Shown: positions 974 to 28,192, counted from the stretch's first letter. The stretch is 50,888 bases of DNA from a virus (IMGVR_UViG_3300022693_004335:1-50888); one strand, 5' to 3'. Translations and numbers: made by a program. The notes: generated by a model not told the origin, from the letters alone.

Positions 974-2227
974 ATGAACAGAATTATTCTTGTAGGCAAC
1001 GGATTTGATTTAGCTCACGATTTGAAAACCAGTTACGATGATTTTTTAAATTATTACTGGGAACAGGTTATTGACAACGTGAATCAGAATTTAAAGGAAG
1101 GCTATGAAGGAAATGGCATAAAGATTCTAAGAGGTATAGGTGATAAATGTGTTGGAAAAACATATTCGCATCTTGTGAATAGTGCTGCTCAAGTAGCTTG
1201 TAAAATCCAATTTACAAACAGCTTTTTGAAAATAATAATGGAATCGAAAAGTTTGAATAATTGGGTTGATATTGAAGATGTTTATTATAGAGAATTGGTG
1301 AAGAGAATGAATAATAGTCCAAAGTCAATTTATTCATTAAATAAACAATTTGAGGAAATTAAATTAGCTTTAAAAAATTACCTATCCACCATAAATTTTA
1401 AAGTGAATTCTGAAAAAAGAGTACATATCAGGAATTCATTTGAATCTCACATTTTCACTCCATTTAACTTTAAGGATTTTATAGAAAATGCGGTTGACGA
1501 TAAATCTGAGAGGGAATTAAAATTACTTAATTCATATATTGACAATCCAGAGAATTTCAAAAATAATCAATATCTATTTAATTTAAGTCGAAGGATTACA
1601 AAGGCTACAAATAAAAAAACTGCTATCACAGATTTATTGCTGAGTAACGATAGTGAGATTTATTTTGATCTAATTCCTGACAATATTTATTTACTAGATT
1701 TCAATTATACCAATACAACCAGTAACTATATTGAAAAGGTTTATTACGACTATTCTCTTGATAAAATGAGAAAGATTAATTGCGAAATAAACCACATACA
1801 TGGATCTCTCAATCCAAAACATAATAATCCTATAATTTTTGGTTTCGGGGACGAATTGGATGACAATTATCCAGCCATCGAAAAATTAAACAATAACGAC
1901 TTTCTTGAAAATATAAAATCCATAAGATATTCAGATACTGACAATTATAAAAAGTTACTTCAATTTGTTAATTCTGATCAATACCAAATATGCATTTTTG
2001 GACACTCCTGTGGTGTTTCCGATCGTACAATGCTCAACACCTTATTTGAGCACGAGAATTGTGTATCTATCAAACCATATTATCATTTAAGAGAAAATGG
2101 TACCGACAATTACAGTGATATCGTACGGAATATATCCCGTAACTTTAACAATAAAGCCAGTATGCGTGATAAGGTTGTAAACAAGACTTACTGCGAACCA
2201 TTAGTAAGACCTGAAAAAAATGGCTGA
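974..2227 (+). CDS. abiH: AbiH-family abortive infection protein (SIR2-like fold)
   Basis: N-terminal ILVGNGFDLAH..KTSY..F plus FNYT, HIHG, IIFGFGDE and FGHS motifs typical of the AbiH family. Confidence 0.85.
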   Translation: MNRIILVGNGFDLAHDLKTSYDDFLNYYWEQVIDNVNQNLKEGYEGNGIKILRGIGDKCVGKTYSHLVNSAAQVACKIQFTNSFLKIIMESKSLNNWVDIEDVYYRELVKRMNNSPKSIYSLNKQFEEIKLALKNYLSTINFKVNSEKRVHIRNSFESHIFTPFNFKDFIENAVDDKSERELKLLNSYIDNPENFKNNQYLFNLSRRITKATNKKTAITDLLLSNDSEIYFDLIPDNIYLLDFNYTNTTSNYIEKVYYDYSLDKMRKINCEINHIHGSLNPKHNNPIIFGFGDELDDNYPAIEKLNNNDFLENIKSIRYSDTDNYKKLLQFVNSDQYQICIFGHSCGVSDRTMLNTLFEHENCVSIKPYYHLRENGTDNYSDIVRNISRNFNNKASMRDKVVNKTYCEPLVRPEKNG

Positions 2228-2363
2228 ATTCTGTAAAAAATGTGGAGACAAATTAGGAATTGGAGGAGTAGATCCACCAGTGTTTTGCGAACATTGCAAA
2301 ATATATTACCCAAGCTCTTGGGAACGGTTCTGTTCGTGGCTTAGCAAGATATTTCGTAAATAA
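2220..2363 (+). CDS. 47-aa zinc-ribbon microprotein (not in ORF track)
   Basis: MAEFCKKCGDKLGIGGVDPPVFCEHCKIYYPSSWERFCSWLSKIFRK: two CxxC pairs, with the ATG overlapping the end of abiH. Confidence 0.55.
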   Translation: MAEFCKKCGDKLGIGGVDPPVFCEHCKIYYPSSWERFCSWLSKIFRK

Positions 2364-2405
2364 CTTATTTAGTATATAAATAGAATTATACTCTATATAG
2401 GTTAT

Positions 2406-3152
2406 TTAGAATAAAGTCGATTGGTTAGAGCCATCAAGCTCTGGATCTATCGCGGGCACCGCATTTAATATTTCAGGAGTATTGGTATCAACGCCTCGTT
2501 TGTAGATTGCATTGCTTACCGGATGATACTTCAATGCTTCATTAGTGAAACTCACATTGATTAACTCTTTAATCTGCTTTTCATTTAAACTAGAATCTAT
2601 CCAGTTCTCGGTAAACTGCTCATCTAGTATTAACGGCATTCGTTTTTTAGCGTTATGGATCTGGGCCATTATATCATTCGCTTCCATTGTCAAGATTGTA
2701 ACGGTGTACAGCTCTTCATCAATTTTATTAAAAAGCCCGGCAAAGTAGAATAGCTTTTGCTCCGGTAGGGTGATATAATAGGGTTGTTTCTTTTCAGTTT
2801 TGGTACCAGGCTTCACATACGTATGTGGCTCGAAAAAACCATCAGCTAAAATCAAGCAACGACCAGACTCCGCACTTTTCTTATACGTGTTACTTGTCCA
2901 GATATCTTCGCTTCTAGCATTATAAGTGTGATAAGGAAACTCTGAAGGAGCGCCTTGGTGAAAATCCGGTATCAGTTTCCAGTCAGCCGGCCAGATCCGT
3001 TGGGGATCATCCTGAGGAATTATATGCAATAACTTATCACCAAAAGCATTTATATGATAGTAAGGCTCGTAAACTTCCGGATAAACAAATTTGCGCTTTG
3101 AAGTTTTTACTATCTCTTCTTCTAACTTGGTTAAACTGGTTGCGTTGCACAT
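2406..3152 (-). CDS. SOS response-associated peptidase (SRAP/YedK/HMCES family)
   Basis: Catalytic Cys2 (MC start), YNARSE, CLILADGFFE and IHN...RMPLIL motifs; adjacent to umuDC. Confidence 0.92.
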   Translation of the reverse strand: MCNATSLTKLEEEIVKTSKRKFVYPEVYEPYYHINAFGDKLLHIIPQDDPQRIWPADWKLIPDFHQGAPSEFPYHTYNARSEDIWTSNTYKKSAESGRCLILADGFFEPHTYVKPGTKTEKKQPYYITLPEQKLFYFAGLFNKIDEELYTVTILTMEANDIMAQIHNAKKRMPLILDEQFTENWIDSSLNEKQIKELINVSFTNEALKYHPVSNAIYKRGVDTNTPEILNAVPAIDPELDGSNQSTLF

Positions 3153-3193
3153 AGAATTCTGATTTAAAAACTAATTTATTAATTTTATGTACT

Positions 3194-3451
3194 ATGGGCC
3201 GTACCCGCAAAGAACTTTATGATTTAGCTAACAACTTTTATCTGAATTCAACCATTCAATTGGTTGATAAGGATTTCACGTATTCATTGTATCGTATAGA
3301 ATATCAGGATAAACTTTATGAGTTATGCATAGCTAATCGCAATAACAATTATAATGGCCCCGCTCCTACATTTTATCTTAGAAATCAAAGTGAAAGTTTT
3401 GCTCGGAATCTTTGTTGGAAAAAATTAATTGAACCCACAATACAGAGATAG
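3194..3451 (+). CDS. Hypothetical protein
   Basis: 85-aa ATG ORF filling the gap between the SRAP gene and umuD. Confidence 0.5.
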   Translation: MGRTRKELYDLANNFYLNSTIQLVDKDFTYSLYRIEYQDKLYELCIANRNNNYNGPAPTFYLRNQSESFARNLCWKKLIEPTIQR

Positions 3452-3466
3452 GATTAATTACATAAT

Positions 3467-3483
3467 TTTGGACTTTTTCCAAA
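3467..3483. promoter_or_regulatory. Bacteroidota-type SOS box (GGA-N5-TCC)
   Basis: Palindrome TTTGGA-CTTTT-TCCAAA ending 16 nt upstream of the umuD ATG; matches the motif reported for Bacteroidota non-canonical LexA. Confidence 0.75.
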
Positions 3484-3499
3484 TTAAAGATTTCCTACA

Positions 3500-3919
3500 A
3501 TGTGTTTAGAATTAATAAAGCCTGCAACGGGGTACTCTATTACGATCCCATTTATTGACAGTTTATCTTGTGGCTTTCCTTCCCCTGCCGATGACCACTT
3601 AGATGAAGGAATAGATTTAAACTCCGCCTATATACGTAATAAGGATGCTACATTTTTTGGCCGCGTAAAAGGGGATTCCATGGAAGGTGCCGGTCTTTCT
3701 GACGGTGATCTTTTAATAATTGACAAAAGTCTTGAGCCTAGAGACGGAAAAATAGCTGTTTGTTTTATAGATGGGGAATTCACGGTTAAACGCATACGCA
3801 TAGAGAAAGATATCATCTGGCTAATTGCTGAGAACTCTAAATACAAGCCTTTAAAAGTTACCAAGGATAACGAATTTCTAATCTGGGGAGTAGTAACTAA
3901 CGTAATTAAGGACTTGTAG
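3500..3919 (+). CDS. umuD: DNA polymerase V accessory subunit UmuD (S24 peptidase)
   Basis: CGFPSPA.D cleavage site, RVKGDSM (Ser) and FTVKR (Lys) catalytic motifs. Confidence 0.95.
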
Positions 3920-3920
3920 A

Positions 3921-5180
3921 ATGTTTGCTCTTATCGATTGTAATAATTTCTACGCCTCTTGTGAACGCGTATTTAATCCTTCATTAAATGGCAAACCTGT
4001 TGTTGTCCTTTCTAATAATGATGGATGTGTAATTGCTAGATCGAACGAAGCGAAGGCTCTCGGTATTCCAATGGGTGCTCCTGCGTTTCAAATCAAGCAG
4101 CTTTTTAATAAACATAACATTCAGGTGTTTTCTTCAAACTATGCTCTTTACGGCGACATGAGTGCACGTGTAATGAACATACTCTCCAATTTCTCTCCAG
4201 AGCTTGAAGTATATTCTATTGATGAAATCTTTTTGAAGCTGGAGGGTTTTGAACTATACAACCTGACAGATTATGGTTGTAAAATGATTGATCTGGTTAA
4301 ACGTTCAACTGGTATTCCAATTAGTATAGGAATTGCTCCTACCAAATCTCTAGCTAAAGTGGCCAATAAGATTGCTAAGAAGTTTCCTGAGCGCACTAAA
4401 GGAACTTATGTTCTAGACACCTCAGAAAAAATTCAAAAGGGTTTAAGGTGGACGGAAATAGGTGATGTATGGGGAATTGGCAGGAGGTACGAAAAAAAAT
4501 TACAGAACATCCAGGTTATGAATGCTTGGCAATTCACACAGCTTCCAAACGAGTATGTAAAAAAAGAAATGAGCATTGTAGGTCTAAGATTGAAACGGGA
4601 TCTATCTGGGGAATCAACGCTTGATTTGGAAGAAGTTGCTAAAAAGAAAAATATTGCTGTTACCAGATCCTTTGAGAAAATGTACACTGACTTTGAAGAT
4701 CTACGTGAACGGGTTGCTACATACGCAAGTAAGGTGAGTTATAAGCTGCGTAAACAAAATAGTTGCTGCAAATTGGCTTATCTTTTTTTACATACGAATA
4801 GACACCGGGAAGATCTCCCACAATACAGTAACGGTATAAGTATTCAAATGCCGTATGAAACAAATTCATCTCTAGTTATTACTAAAACAGTAATGAGCGG
4901 ATTGAAGCGAATTTATAGAGAAGGTTATCACTATAAAAAAGCCGGCATAATTGTAATGGGATTAACCCCAGATACACAAAAACAATTAGTCCTATTTCAT
5001 AATGAAGATCCCCGGCATAAAATTTTGATGCAAACTATTGATCGGTTGAATAGAAATTGCTTCGACCAGGTGAAGTTTGGCGGGCAGGATCTGAAAAAAG
5101 TCTGGAAGATGCAACAAAATCATTTATCCAAACGATACAGCACGCGTCTTAATGAGATCATTGAGGTGAAGTGTAATTGA
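3921..5180 (+). CDS. umuC: Y-family DNA polymerase V subunit UmuC
   Basis: [32 protein letters not shown] and the C-terminal WKMQQ..LS.RYST motif. Confidence 0.95.
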
Positions 5181-22796: not shown

Positions 22797-22824
22797 AAAA
22801 AAAAAGAGCCCGGTGAAGGCTCTT
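22797..22824 (-). terminator. Intrinsic terminator closing the accessory operon
   Basis: Minus strand AAGAGCC-TTCACCG-GGCTCTT followed by a T run. Confidence 0.8.
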
Positions 22825-22852
22825 ATACGGTTGTATAAAATCAATGTTTAGG

Positions 22853-23212
22853 CTATGGTGAGCCATTTATAAAAGATATGTAATTATTCAAATCTTCCAT
22901 AAATAGTTTGAGTTCTCGTTCGTATTCTTCTCTTGTAATTTGCTCACCCATATCACAATAGTAAGTGTAGCTATTTGTATCTAAAAAACCTTTAAAAAAA
23001 TCATTCCCAACTTCAAAATGGTGTTCCCTTGATGTTTTTTGAAAAGTAAAAGCCTGACAAGTTTCTTCATCAAAATATTCGTGTTTAATAATTTTAGCAT
23101 AAGCCCACCAAACACCATTTCTTGGGTGGTAAGAGTTTTTAGCCTTGAAGTATAAAGACTCATTTAATTCTAAATCTTTTACTTTTTTTCTCATTTCTAA
23201 ATTTTCATCCAT
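22853..23212 (-). CDS. Hypothetical protein
   Basis: ATG at 23212 (MDENLE). The longer GTG start at 23311 would read through a repeat site. Confidence 0.6.
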   Translation of the reverse strand: MDENLEMRKKVKDLELNESLYFKAKNSYHPRNGVWWAYAKIIKHEYFDEETCQAFTFQKTSREHHFEVGNDFFKGFLDTNSYTYYCDMGEQITREEYERELKLFMEDLNNYISFINGSP

Positions 23213-23280
23213 AATAAAATATGTTATTTGCGCTCGTACATCACGCACGCCTTTTTTCTTTAAAAACAGTTCCCTTCGGT

Positions 23281-23558
23281 GGGTAACACTGTATAAACAA
23301 AATACACTCACTTCAAACTGAATGCTATAAAATCGCCTCTCATATCAGTTGTAATTCCAATAAATCGCTTGCATTTGCATTTCATTCTCATATAGTGTTT
23401 ATCTTGTTTCATCCATTTTCCTTCAATCTCATCAAATGGTATTTGTCGCTCACATTCTGGACACTCGGCTTTACTTTCTGCTAGTGTTAAAATTCCGTTT
23501 GGTATAATTACTGTTTTGCTCATGTTCGTTTTACTTTTGTTATACTCGTAAATTACCC
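23281..23558 (+). repeat. attC-like site 1 with a gene in its loop
   Basis: GGGTAAC-ACT-GTATAAACAAAA ... TTTTGTTATAC-TCGTAA-ATTACCC. Confidence 0.6.
23308..23523 (-). CDS. Small zinc-ribbon protein inside attC-like site 1
   Basis: CPEC...CKC motifs, 71 aa. Confidence 0.7.
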   Translation of the reverse strand: MSKTVIIPNGILTLAESKAECPECERQIPFDEIEGKWMKQDKHYMRMKCKCKRFIGITTDMRGDFIAFSLK

Positions 23559-23752
23559 TGCGGGGCGTGTTGCTCCGCTTTTAAAATTTTTAAAGCTGAT
23601 TTAAACTTCTCCACTCGCTTAGAGTGATATTCACTTGTCGATAAAAGAACTTTTATATCCACAGTTTTGTCCTTGTGAGAATCCTGAGGATAGCTCGCTA
23701 AATGATGTGATATATGTATTTGGGATTGTACCCATTCTATGATTTCTTCCAT
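23540..23752 (-). CDS. Hypothetical cassette protein
   Basis: 70-aa ATG ORF whose stop falls in a repeat arm. Confidence 0.55.
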   Translation of the reverse strand: MEEIIEWVQSQIHISHHLASYPQDSHKDKTVDIKVLLSTSEYHSKRVEKFKSALKILKAEQHAPQGNLRV

Positions 23753-23867
23753 ATTTGTAAAATTTTAAAGACTCCCGCACCCCTTAATTTGCCCTAACGG
23801 TCTGTGTGTGCAGTGCCATTGGTTAATAATTGTATTTTAGTTAATTATAGCTTAGCAGGGTAACTAT

Positions 23868-23956
23868 CCCTAACACCGCATATCTGCAAGACGGCACAGC
23901 AATCTGCCCCTCTGTAGGGCTGCGCCCTCCAGGCAGATATACACAGACCGTTATAT
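23868..23956 (+). repeat. attC-like site 2 (compact, 89 bp)
   Basis: CCCTAAC-ACC-GCATATCTGC ... GCAGATATAC-ACAGACC-GTTATAT with an inner CACAGC/GCTGCG stem. Confidence 0.65.
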
Positions 23957-23960
23957 ACAA

Positions 23961-24051
23961 GTGGCGAATAGGTATCGAACCTATCTACGGCAGTCCTTCA
24001 ATAATTAGACTTCCTGTTTTTTATCACTGTACCTACTGTGAGTATCGCCAC
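23961..24051 (-). ncRNA. tRNA-like element without a canonical anticodon arm
   Basis: Acceptor GTGGCGA/TCGCCAC, D arm TCAC-AGTAGGTACA-GTGA, T arm ATAGG-TTCGATA-CCTAT. Confidence 0.65.
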
Positions 24052-24056
24052 CAGAT

Positions 24057-24291
24057 ATATAACTATGTATAACACAAATACACTCACTTACAATAGGTCT
24101 TTTTAAACCAATCTCTTGCTTTTTCTAGTCGTGCTAAATCTTGTCTAGCCATTTTTAATTCTTCTTTTCCTCCAACAATACCTCCTGCTATTGCAGAATC
24201 TTGATGAAAAACGCACTCTTCTAATATTTCTAAAACTAATTTTTTGCTCATAATTCGTTCATTTTACTTGTGTTATACAGTTCCGTTATCT
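24057..24291 (+). repeat. attC-like site 3 with a gene in its loop
   Basis: ATATAAC-TAT-GTATAACACAA ... TTGTGTTATAC-AGTTCC-GTTATCT; perfect 11-bp inner inverted repeat. Confidence 0.7.
24084..24251 (-). CDS. 55-aa microprotein inside attC-like site 3 (not in ORF track)
   Basis: MSKKLVLEILEECVFHQDSAIAGGIVGGKEELKMARQDLARLEKARDWFKKTYCK; start and stop contexts match those of 23308-23523. Confidence 0.65.
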   Translation of the reverse strand: MSKKLVLEILEECVFHQDSAIAGGIVGGKEELKMARQDLARLEKARDWFKKTYCK

Positions 24292-24292
24292 A

Positions 24293-24398
24293 CAGTTTCA
24301 CAACTCCAACGCGCGCTTCTTTAATTCCAATCTCACGTGATCTACATTGTGAATAAAGCCACTACCGTGGGCTATGCCTTCGCTCTGTTGTGAAACTG
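24293..24398. ncRNA. Candidate structured RNA cassette
   Basis: Perfect 12-bp closing stem CAGTTTCACAAC/GTTGTGAAACTG with internal hairpins; no ATG-initiated ORF fills it. Confidence 0.4.
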
Positions 24399-24413
24399 CA
24401 AAGCCCTTCGGGT

Positions 24414-24723
24414 AGATAACTATGTATATAATTAATGCTTAACCTTTTGCTTCTCAATCAAGGCTTGTGTTTTAAGTCGCCTACTACCAACGGATGACAT
24501 ACAGTCAAAACATTGTTTATCGCAAGTTCCTAAAACTTCTGGATTAAGAATTTCATCCTTTTCTCTTTCAGTCATATTTGTTTTTTCAAGAGCGTGGAAA
24601 GTTTCATTCCATTCGTCTATTGAAAATTCCTCGTCGCCACACATCCGTTGGCAGTAAAAATTATTGTTATTCATAATTATTTGTTTTTGAATTTCGCACT
24701 AATCATATACTTATCCGTTAGCG
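24414..24723 (+). repeat. attC-like site 4 with a gene in its loop
   Basis: AGATAAC-TAT-GTATATAATTAATGC ... GCACTAATCATATAC-TTATCC-GTTAGCG. Confidence 0.7.
24432..24674 (-). CDS. Cys-rich hypothetical protein inside attC-like site 4
   Basis: 80 aa with FYC...C and CDKQCFDC motifs. Confidence 0.7.
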   Translation of the reverse strand: MNNNNFYCQRMCGDEEFSIDEWNETFHALEKTNMTEREKDEILNPEVLGTCDKQCFDCMSSVGSRRLKTQALIEKQKVKH

Positions 24724-24927
24724 CGCATTAAATTCTGCTACTAACTTTGATGCTTTTTCTCTATTGAATTTACTTGTGCAATTTGACCAACAAATATTTT
24801 TAGTACATCCTTCAATCCATCCCCATTCTGTCCCGTCAGTGTTCGGGTGTCTGTTTGTCTTTAAACTCAATTTGTCAGCTATTGGCACTATTTCTTGTCC
24901 TGATACGTCTTTGCCTATACTTTCCAT
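24718..24927 (-). CDS. Hypothetical cassette protein
   Basis: ATG at 24927 (MESIGK); the stop codon TAA is the complement of the GTTA core. Confidence 0.65.
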   Translation of the reverse strand: MESIGKDVSGQEIVPIADKLSLKTNRHPNTDGTEWGWIEGCTKNICWSNCTSKFNREKASKLVAEFNAR

Positions 24928-24938
24928 AAAACAACGCA

Positions 24939-25069
24939 CGCTAACATTGTATATAAATCAGTGGCGTTACCGTGTCTTTTTGAACCACCTTTGCTGTTAA
25001 TTTAGTTTAAGCGTGTTTGCAATCTTACAGCTATTAATCGCCACCGCTTCATATACTTATCCGTTCAGA
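24939..25069 (+). repeat. attC-like site 5 (131 bp, non-coding loop)
   Basis: CGCTAAC-ATT-GTATATAAATCAGTGGCG ... CGCCACCGCTTCATATAC-TTATCC-GTTCAGA. Confidence 0.7.
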
Positions 25070-25101: not shown

Positions 25102-25305
25102 TCAAACCCTTTCAACATCTCTAATTTCCTCCAGTTCATTACCGGCTACCGTGTAACTCCCGATAGCTTCATATTTCTTTTCTCCGTTGATATATCCGTC
25201 GATGAAATATTCGGTGCTTTGTCCGTGTCTTTCGCATTGCTCTACTTTTTCTGGATGGCCCTGTTCGATAAGTTCATCGATTAGGATTTTAGTTGTTGTG
25301 TTCAT
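25102..25305 (-). CDS. Hypothetical protein
   Basis: 67 aa, ATGA-coupled to the upstream gene. Confidence 0.65.
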   Translation of the reverse strand: MNTTTKILIDELIEQGHPEKVEQCERHGQSTEYFIDGYINGEKKYEAIGSYTVAGNELEEIRDVERV

Positions 25306-28057: not shown

Positions 28058-28192
28058 GAGCAAGTGGCGGAATTGGTAGACGCTATCTACTCCGAGGAAT
28101 GATAAGTTCGCGCGATAGTTCTAAAGAAGTAAATCCTCGCGGTGCGTTTTGCACAGTAGGGGATTGTGCAGGTTCGAACCCTGCCTTGCTCA
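28058..28192 (+). ncRNA. tRNA-Leu-like element with expanded anticodon region (135 nt)
   Basis: Acceptor GAGCAAG/CTTGCTC-A, D arm GCG-GAATTGGTAGA-CGC, T arm GCAGG-TTCGAAC-CCTGC. Confidence 0.75.

What the first reader, a model, noticed from the sequence alone, without database searches (positions are those of the whole stretch)
23291..24710. Protein genes nested inside the loops of the attC-like sites
Sites 1, 3 and 4 span 235-310 bp because an ORF fills the space between the inner arms (GTATA...TATAC), while sites 2 and 5 have short non-coding loops. The unrelated ORFs in sites 1 and 3 share both flanks: on the minus strand GTATAACA(A/C)AAGTAAAA...GAAC..ATGAGCAAAA at the start and AAGTGAGTGTATTT at the stop. 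Both begin MSK and end K-stop, so the repeat appears to supply the translation start and stop. Canonical attC loops are short and non-coding. Inference: a second class of exchangeable unit bounded by the inner arms, giving two interleaved cassette types or a scaffold for gene capture.
Basis: partly seen in the sequence, partly recalled or inferred. Interest (0 to 1): 0.85.

Follow-up and report, generated by a model that had tools for sequence, protein, structure and literature searches.

The report
Phage genes inside recombination-hairpin loops
In this marine phage, three small genes sit inside the loops of the DNA hairpins that mark where swappable gene cassettes are cut and joined, a layout not described for classical integrons.

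Summary
Read on the minus strand, window 25062-23223 is five abutting cassettes. Each is [spacer, L'' arm, loop B, L' arm, GTT...loop A...AAC]. ORF80, ORF55 and ORF71 lie in loop B, between the GTATA/TATAC arms. ORF73 and ORF70 lie in loop A.

All three loop ORFs belong to conserved protein families. The leader and stop arm shared by ORF71 and ORF55 recur in other contigs: 43 of 55 closed ORFs behind that leader end at the same arm, in 26 unrelated families, almost always in the register NAG-TGA.

Relatives end such arrays at a 266-277 aa Xer-like recombinase that lacks the IntI-specific segment. The window has no tyrosine recombinase. Polaribacter phage isolates Freya and Danklef differ by whole cassettes in six exact events, all at the outer ...AAC| and none at the inner arms.

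My reading is an integron-like array. One R-spacer-L helix splits a circular cassette into two loops, and either loop can hold the gene. The "second exchangeable unit" reading is only partly supported, by comparison of loci and not by any observed event.

This scan noted the same design before on other DNA (e1-5743917, e1-5899108, e1-5957037).

The parts
23223..25065 (-). Whole cassette array, read on the minus strand. It runs from the first ...GAAC| (AAC = 25065-25063) to the last ...TAAC| (AAC = 25225-23223 region, AAC = 23225-23223).
   Evidence: Upstream (26550-25102) is an ordinary overlapping operon without hairpins. ORF119 and a terminator lie downstream.
24717..25062 (-). Cassette C0. 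The B hairpin is non-coding (arms GTATAT 25056-25051 and ATATAC 24954-24949, inner GTGGCG/CGCCAC). After AAT comes GTT (24945-24943) and loop A with ORF73 (ATG 24927, stop TAA 24720-24718 inside ...GCGCGCTAAC|).
   Evidence: folds as predicted, z -2.34. A similar hairpin lies in another context in run X9.
24285..24716 (-). Loop B holds ORF80 (24674-24432) between arms 24710-24696 and 24438-24424. Then ATA, GTT (24420-24418) and a non-coding A hairpin to AAC (24287-24285).
   Evidence: 7 protein clusters, 47-86% identity to the window's protein among the six others; A hairpin z -2.60.
23950..24284 (-). It has the leader GTATAACACAAGTAAAATGAAC (24278-24257), ORF55 (24251-24084) and the stop arm AAGTGAGTGTATTT..GTGTTATAC (24089-24067). 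Then ATA, GTT (24063-24061) and a non-coding A hairpin to AAC (23952-23950).
   Evidence: (10 clusters, MSKK invariant).
23550..23949 (-). GTT is at 23798-23796. Loop A holds ORF70 (23752-23540). Its 3' end is truncated at 23550.
   Evidence: z -4.99, 0 of 200 shuffles fold as well; a 3278-nt contig of run X3 holds only 23550-23952, with other DNA on both sides.
23223..23549 (-). It has the leader GTATAACAAAAGTAAAACGAAC (23545-23524), ORF71 (23523-23308) and the stop arm (23313-23291). Then AGT, GTT (23287-23285) and a short A unit to AAC (23225-23223).
   Evidence: 57 clusters, invariant CxxC..CxC; same arms around the 72%-identical homolog in L043/L060.
23549..23550 (-). Fused junction C3/C4. 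Ten bases that hold the crossover core (end of the R'' arm with its AAC, plus GG) are missing compared with intact copies elsewhere.
   Evidence: Loose ends of contigs in runs X3 and X13.
22853..23212 (-). ORF119. It occupies the slot that holds the Xer-like recombinase gene in relative L007. No family was found for it.
   Evidence: The same downstream anchor is seen in both.

Best explanation
The region is an integron-like gene-cassette array in a Flavobacteriaceae-type provirus. It now has no recombinase gene of its own, so it is CALIN-like.

Each cassette runs from just after one ...AAC to the next ...AAC. It carries four pairing segments in a fixed order:
- a spacer of 5-7 nt
- L''
- loop B
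- L'
- 1-4 nt
- R' (GTT...)
- loop A
- R'' (...AAC)

In the excised circle, R''/R' and L''/L' would form one interrupted helix. This is the equivalent of the attC R box, unpaired spacer and L box. That helix divides the circle into two loops. Cargo can sit in loop A (ORF73, ORF70), in loop B (ORF80, ORF55, ORF71), in both, or can read across L'-GTT.

A Xer-like tyrosine recombinase that lacks the IntI-specific segment is encoded at the downstream end of related arrays and is common in host genomes. I propose that it cuts at or within AAC.

Shown: the anatomy; that the loop ORFs are conserved proteins; exact AAC| breakpoints in relatives; reuse of one arm set by 26 ORF families.

Inferred: folding as single-stranded DNA; which enzyme acts on this array; that a loop of 230-290 nt still allows recombination.
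For: Anatomy. The same architecture next to a 266-277 aa recombinase is seen in L007, L020, L021, L022 and L026.

GTT..AAC repeats of 13 nt or more: 30 observed against 4.2 expected over 173 kb in 13 sequences.

Freya isolates differ only in array length (868 to 5810 nt). Breakpoints share only AAC:
- F1, F2 and F5 join sites a, b and c to the terminal site.
- F8 joins b to c.
- F6 adds one cassette.
Danklef_3 lacks exactly one methylase cassette. That makes 6 of 6 events at AAC|.

Site b, used twice, is the 3' end of a Freya cassette whose 85-aa ORF lies in loop B. The F6 cassette has one ORF in each loop.

Loop ORFs are conserved families. ORF71, window against L060: 79% nucleotide identity, differences by codon position 11/8/26, arms nearly identical.

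Same arms, 26 ORF families; 40 of 43 have AAC 3-8 nt upstream. Cassette C3 is found alone in another context.

Recombinase: best matches are XerA, XerC and XerD. About 48 residues of IntI4 have no counterpart. Homologs occur in 63 of 201 Flavobacteriaceae-family genomes. Eight of 12 loci fetched have a GTT..AAC repeat of 13 nt or more (adjacency to the recombinase gene was not checked position by position).
Against: - The window has no tyrosine recombinase and no terminal site like those beside the recombinases (TATATGTA type).
- Its outer repeats are short (9-10 nt) and not above chance on their own.
- One junction has lost its core. This copy may be a fossil.
- No excision junction was seen in the window's own DNA. 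Only contigs could be laid.
- Folding scores are modest: z -2.0 to -5.0 for four window hairpins, -1.75 for the C4 A-unit stretch, and about -0.5 for two other elements tested.
- In integrons, long terminal loops lower recombination by up to 4 logs except with single-stranded delivery (PMC8946536, passages).
- The 33-aa cassette in L058 and L062 differs in its spacer (GGATGA against GCTAA). A pure AAC| crossover does not predict this.
- ORF71 has different A units in the window and in L060.
- An earlier scan note with the same reading was later marked 'part of it fell'. Which part is not shown.
Confidence: 0.6

Rival explanations
1. There are two interleaved module types, as the reader proposed and as in pdif-type module arrays. 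Both junction kinds, AAC-spacer-GTATA and TATAC-NNN-GTT (its mirror image with a shorter spacer), would be crossover sites. Loop units and GTT..AAC units would then move independently.
For: The junctions alternate in orientation. The same A hairpin goes with different loop ORFs. For example, GTTATTGTGCG..CTCTAAC is paired with at least three unrelated ORFs (L058, L060, L067). ORF71 has different A units in the window and L060. The U0-like hairpin sits beside a different GTT unit in run X9.
Against: None of the 6 natural events breaks at an inner junction. The 33-aa cassette keeps its A hairpin while both of its neighbours differ. Cassette C3 travels as hairpin plus body. The arm sequences are not conserved in the way fixed recombinase-binding sites would be.
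Confidence: 0.15
2. The arms are expression signals: a leader, a stop, and RNA hairpins or terminators. They would spread among small accessory genes by ordinary homologous recombination, so the gene-in-loop picture would be incidental.
For: The conserved A-rich leader ends 0-7 nt before the ATG. The stop codon lies in the arm. Hairpins follow the stops. The array lies in a hypervariable slot between the head-morphogenesis and scaffold genes. That slot holds other cargo in L002, L003, L006 and L007.
Against: Breakpoints share only 3 nt, which is too little for homologous recombination. A recombinase gene sits at the array end in relatives. Stems differ between cassettes yet remain complementary. 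None of the hairpins read ends in a T run, apart from the real terminator at 22800-22826.
Confidence: 0.12
3. The units are single-strand 'peel and paste' transposons of the IS200/IS605 kind, or miniature inverted-repeat elements, inserted one after another 3' of AAC.
For: The units have hairpins near both ends, abut a fixed short target, and end in the same triplet.
Against: No Y1 transposase (PF01797) is in the window. None of the ORFs listed in L007 or L021 looked like one, though no family search was run on them. Instead, a tyrosine recombinase with a conserved terminal site is linked to the arrays.
Confidence: 0.03

Closest known systems
Integrons and attC sites, including clusters of attC sites without integrase (CALINs) reported in phages such as Polaribacter phage P12002L (Qi et al. 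2023, PMC9892861; outline and section 3.4 read)
   Same: There is a row of promoter-poor cassettes. Each site has R''(..AAC)-L''-loop-L'-R'(GTT..), with structure conserved and sequence not. The crossover is at the AAC/GTT triplet. A terminal site lies next to the recombinase gene, and new cassettes enter there (F6). Stop codons overlap the site.
   Different: The recombinase is Xer-like and lacks the IntI-specific segment. Genes are sense on the strand that carries AAC 5' of the hairpin and are co-directional with the recombinase. The cassette-specific R stems are long in relatives (up to 28 nt in Freya), though only 9-10 nt in this window. The loop can hold a whole gene of 170-250 nt, or the gene can read through L'-GTT. 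I recall canonical attC sites as about 57-141 nt with a non-coding loop.
rAID-1 arrays of gut Bacteroidales (Ross et al., bioRxiv 10.1101/471110; passages read)
   Same: It is found in the phylum Bacteroidota and has an XerD-family recombinase. Arrays of co-directional small genes are separated by repetitive intergenic sequences that the authors call reminiscent of integrons.
   Different: There the recombinase is at the 5' end and the cargo is immunity genes. In the passages I read, neither the crossover point, nor hairpin anatomy, nor genes inside the repeats were described. The element here is a phage. Sequence relatedness of the two recombinases was not tested.
Xer-mediated integration of folded single-stranded phage DNA (CTX phage; abstract start of PMC3442271 seen in a search listing)
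   Same: It is a precedent that Xer-type enzymes without the integron-specific helix can exchange one strand pair between a folded single strand and duplex DNA.
   Different: It involves a single attachment site and host XerC/D, with no cassette array.
pdif (Xer) modules of Acinetobacter plasmids (abstract start of PMC7399989 seen in a listing; the rest recalled)
   Same: Sites alternate in orientation, so that every segment between two sites is flanked by inverted copies.
   Different: pdif arms are conserved binding sequences. Here only AAC/GTT is conserved and each unit has its own complementary arms. The observed events use one junction type only.

Membership tests
Integron (IntI + attI + attC cassettes) | An integron integrase with the IntI-specific extra segment (I2 helix region) | tested here: not met
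   The window has no PF00589 gene. The relatives' recombinase scores 129.7 bits against TIGR02249, whose cut-off is 265. It aligns to IntI4 (2a3v) in two pieces that skip about residues 218-265.
Integron (IntI + attI + attC cassettes) | Sites built as R''-L''-variable loop-L'-R' with AAC/GTT cores and imperfect pairing | tested here: met
   Spacers are 5-7 nt on the AAC side and 1-4 nt on the GTT side.
Integron (IntI + attI + attC cassettes) | Crossover in the conserved triplet, with cassettes gained and lost as units | tested here: met
   Tested in relatives only: 6 of 6 events in Freya and Danklef. Cassette C3 is found alone in another contig.
Integron (IntI + attI + attC cassettes) | A short non-coding attC, with the gene outside the site | tested here: not met
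   3 of 5 window cassettes carry the ORF between L'' and L'. The size range of canonical attC sites is recalled, not measured here.
CALIN (attC cluster lacking an integrase) | Two or more attC sites with no integrase nearby, as called by the IntegronFinder attC model | not testable with these tools
   No attC covariance model was on hand, and Rfam gave only tRNA hits. By analogy the window fits: five sites and no recombinase.
rAID-1 | A recombinase more than 44% identical to the B. fragilis reference, placed 5' of co-directional genes (criteria read) | tested here: inconclusive
   Placement is not met: the recombinase is at the 3' end in L007, L021 and Freya. Identity to the reference was not tested because its sequence was not on hand.
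pdif/Xer modules | Conserved paired binding arms at every junction | tested here: not met
   Only AAC/GTT and, in one sub-class, the GTATAAC arms are conserved.
IS200/IS605-type elements | A Y1 (HUH) transposase | tested here: not met
   No PF01797 match in the window.

The most novel reading that the evidence does not exclude
The GTATAAC / AGTGAGTGTATTT arm pair is a frame-locked loading dock. A dedicated, still unknown reaction would place unrelated open reading frames exactly between a shared leader and a shared NAG-TGA stop. That would create new cassettes (cassette genesis, unsolved for integrons) and could swap genes between arm families independently of the AAC| exchange.
Probability: 0.15. 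Interest if true: 0.9.

Novelty: new variant of a known kind. Interest (0 to 1): 0.72.

Why it matters
Integron biology holds that the recombination site is short and that the gene lies beside it. It also holds that single-strand site recognition needed the special IntI helix. Here a simpler Xer-like enzyme is linked to cassette arrays in phages, and natural isolates differ by exact cassette events. The gene can occupy either side of the recombination helix.

If confirmed, three things would follow:
- It would widen what counts as a gene-capture platform, since current integron finders need IntI and short attC sites.
- It would explain hypervariable accessory regions of marine Flavobacteria phages.
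- It would make the origin of cassettes testable, because one arm set is attached in a fixed reading register to 26 unrelated genes.

Tried and rejected
- The scaffold protein used as a probe for related loci found no relative among 599 pattern hits.
- The first 3'-arm pattern gave 0 hits in viral contigs.
- Rfam gave only tRNA hits.
- Pfam gave nothing for 10 small ORFs. PHROGs gave one weak hit and one hit of unknown function.
- The generic AAC-stem-GTT detector found 14 and 9 hits on the two strands, against 2-11 in shuffles. It is too noisy to use as a test.
- GTT..AAC repeats of 10 nt or more in the window: 23 against 14 expected, so not informative.
- Folding: the composite L'-A-hairpin stretch of L058 (z -0.43) and one L021 site (z -0.49) fold no better than shuffles.
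- Read laying used Logan contigs only. Run X1 pieces are identical to the window but none bridges a junction differently. Uncovered parts mean nothing. No excision joint of the window's own array was seen. The X9 joint 23593/23753 has 157 other letters in place of 159. This could be a divergent ORF70 or a replacement, and is undecided.
- Recombinase homologs at about 40% identity in host genomes are not specific enough to name a trans-acting enzyme.
- ORF71 relatives: 10 of 11 viral loci have no arms. The gene family is therefore not tied to the scaffold.
- 12 of 55 closed ORFs behind the leader pattern have no 3' arm. Several of these are an unrelated look-alike family.
- Nothing was on record for this genome in the scan's notes.

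Full report
**What the window is**

The window is a whole IMG/VR provirus record of 50,888 bases. Its nearest named relative is a Leeuwenhoekiella phage.

Genes run on the minus strand in this order: small and large terminase, portal, head morphogenesis (30177-29146), an accessory region, scaffold (22682-22050) and major capsid (21659-20364).

In relatives with 74-88% identical capsids, the slot between the head-morphogenesis and scaffold genes holds quite different DNA:
- L002 has 1.9 kb with one 407-aa gene.
- L003 and L006 have about 0.7 kb.
- L007 has about 7 kb.

**The observation**

Read on the minus strand, the stretch 25065-23223 is a chain in which two junction types alternate. One is ...AAC, 5-7 nt, GTATA.... 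The other is ...TATAC, 2-3 nt, GTT.... Every segment is therefore flanked by its own inverted repeat.

- ORF80, ORF55 and ORF71 lie between GTATA/TATAC arms.
- ORF73 and ORF70 lie between GTT/AAC arms.
- The other segments are non-coding hairpins. They fold as the repeats predict, with z from -2.0 to -5.0.

The flanks shared by ORF71 and ORF55 are exact. The 22-nt leader and the 14-nt stop arm each occur twice in the window and never in 100 shuffles. The two proteins are unrelated.

The weak points are the window's outer repeats. They are only 9-10 nt and not above chance by themselves. One junction is also degenerate.

**The loop ORFs are real genes**

- ORF71 has 57 protein clusters at 66-96% identity, with four invariant cysteines.
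- ORF80 has 7 clusters.
- ORF55 has 10 clusters.
- Between the window and L060, ORF71 differs at 11, 8 and 26 first, second and third codon positions. The arms stay nearly identical.

**What the sites do**

L007 has the same architecture. It shows perfect 15-16-nt GTT..AAC repeats round small ORFs and a GCATAT..ATATGC pair round another. The array ends directly at a 277-aa tyrosine recombinase gene.

Homologous recombinases in L020, L021, L022 and L026 are likewise preceded by GTT..AAC-bounded cassettes separated by 108-121-nt hairpins. Each has a conserved terminal site, AAC + N3-5 + TATATGTA.

Over 13 such sequences, GTT..AAC repeats of 13 nt or more number 30 against 4.2 expected.

The enzyme is Xer-like. 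Its best NCBIfam matches are XerA, XerC and XerD, all below cut-off. Its closest solved structures are archaeal XerA. About 48 residues of the Vibrio integron integrase, the region of its specific helix, have no counterpart.

The window itself has no tyrosine recombinase. ORF119 sits where L007 has the recombinase gene.

**Natural experiment**

The same recombinase family (33% identity) is annotated 'integrase' in Polaribacter phages Freya and Danklef.

Six Freya isolates were compared. Between two fixed anchors they have arrays of 868, 1710, 2612, 3084, 4908 and 5810 nt, otherwise 99-100% identical. The junctions are exact and share only AAC with their partners:
- Three isolates join an internal ...AAC| to the terminal site.
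- One isolate joins two internal sites.
- One isolate carries an extra cassette at the recombinase-proximal position.

Danklef_3 lacks exactly one methylase cassette, again from AAC| to AAC|.

So 6 of 6 events break at the outer AAC and none at an inner arm. In the five deletions the spacer always came from the downstream partner.

The mobile unit is therefore [spacer, L'', loop B, L', GTT..loop A..AAC]. With respect to site polarity the layout matches the integron bottom strand. AAC lies 5' of the hairpin and the recombinase gene is downstream and sense. The cargo genes, however, are sense on that strand.

The paper that described these phages gives the genome size range. It has no occurrence of 'cassette', 'indel' or 'variable region' in its main text (PMC8776804, passages). 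Its supplements were closed.

**Genes in the loop elsewhere**

In Freya_10, one cassette has its 85-aa ORF wholly in loop B, followed by a 57-nt A hairpin. Its 3' boundary was used in two of the events. Two further cassettes start their ORF in loop B and read through L'-GTT into loop A. The extra cassette of Freya_6 has one ORF in each loop.

The position of the gene relative to the helix is therefore free. This is the basis of my reading. In a circular cassette, one R-spacer-L helix makes two loops, and either can hold cargo. In tandem loop-B cassettes, the element between genes (L', GTT hairpin AAC|, spacer, L'') is a compact inside-out version of the usual site. This could explain why the L arms of this class are conserved between cassettes while the inner GTT/AAC stems vary and stay complementary.

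I scanned viral, genome and metagenome contigs with the 22-nt leader pattern and analysed 70 matches. Some contigs occur in two collections.

- 9 matches have no ATG within 12 nt.
- 6 ORFs run off the contig.
- 55 ORFs are closed.

Of the 55 closed ORFs, 43 end at the conserved arm:
- 28 use the arm's TGA as the stop. The last codon is AAG 18 times, GAG 8, CAG 1 and AAA 1.
- 14 have their own TAG directly before that TGA.
- 1 has its own stop with the arm within 9 nt.

The other 12 have no arm.

The 43, plus the two window ORFs, give 37 distinct proteins in 26 BLASTP families. AAC lies 3-8 nt upstream of the leader in 40 of 43. The L' arm followed by GTT comes after the ORF in 35 of 43.

So identical arms do enclose different genes, in a fixed register.

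Conversely, the ORF55 homolog in L075 sits in a different arm family. Ten of 11 viral loci with ORF71 relatives have no arms at all. Some of those relatives still start MSKT, and one ends SLK-TGA.

The stop belongs to the scaffold. The start and MSK belong to the genes.

**This copy**

Public contigs show cassette C3 (23550-23952) alone, with other DNA on both sides. Their loose ends show the intact forms of both sides of the C3/C4 junction. The window has lost ten bases there, including the AAC core.

Together with the missing recombinase and terminal site, this suggests a decaying or trans-dependent array.

Recombinase homologs occur in 63 of 201 Flavobacteriaceae-family genomes sampled. Eight of 12 loci fetched carry a GTT..AAC repeat of 13 nt or more. 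I did not check its distance to the recombinase gene in each.

**Comparison with what is known**

The closest systems are:
- integrons, and the attC clusters reported in phages, including a Polaribacter phage with 'divergent' attC sites (PMC9892861, section 3.4)
- the rAID-1 arrays of Bacteroidales (bioRxiv 10.1101/471110, passages).

It works like an integron but fails the integrase test.

In six library searches I found no paper describing genes inside such hairpin loops, or these phage arrays. The library is partial.

This scan's earlier notes describe the same system and the same gene-in-loop design on other DNA. One of them was later marked 'part of it fell', without saying which part. 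I reached my reading before seeing them (note). I count them as leads only.

**Verdict**

This is a new variant of a known kind. The mechanism is inferred beyond the AAC| crossover.

Noticed in passing
window 23549-23550: Ten bases holding the crossover core are missing between cassettes C3 and C4, compared with intact copies in two public contigs. ORF70 therefore ends ..NLRV at a TAA inside the next cassette's arm, not at the TAA of its own ..CCCTAAC.
   Followed up: partly
window 25102-25305: ORF67 looks like a fusion. Its N-terminal part matches L007 ORF 5162-5389 and its C-terminal part matches the end of L007 ORF 6211-6744. About 1.4 kb present in L007 is absent here.
   Followed up: no
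L027-L039 (Polaribacter phages Freya_1 to Freya_10): The 44.0-48.9 kb size range of these co-isolated phages is explained by whole-cassette gains and losses next to the 'integrase' gene. I did not find this stated in the main text of the describing paper.
   Followed up: yes
L072-L074 (Danklef phages): The 'integrase' is only a 132-nt remnant with an opposite-strand ORF beside it. Even so, Danklef_3 and Danklef_5 differ by one exact cassette.
   Followed up: partly
window 974-5180: The left end carries an AbiH-like gene, an SRAP peptidase gene and a Y-family polymerase (IMS) gene. No integrase of any tyrosine type is in the record, so how the provirus integrates is open.
   Followed up: no
window 28058-28192 (+): Rfam reports a weak 135-nt tRNA match (36 bits) that ARAGORN does not call. 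It lies beside the plus-strand genes for PAPS reductase and an HTH regulator.
   Followed up: no
L021 2941-3988 and 6812-8059: A DNA methyltransferase gene is itself enclosed by a 15-nt GTT..AAC repeat. A second, 415-aa tyrosine recombinase follows the Xer-like one.
   Followed up: no
L058 against L062 (33-aa cassette): The same cassette in two contexts keeps its A hairpin. Its spacer differs (GGATGA against GCTAA), which a crossover exactly at AAC| does not predict.
   Followed up: no
L075 1900-2060: A near-empty copy of the ORF80-type scaffold. It has the same leader as window 24710-24675 but only a 7-codon ORF and a decayed 3' side.
   Followed up: no
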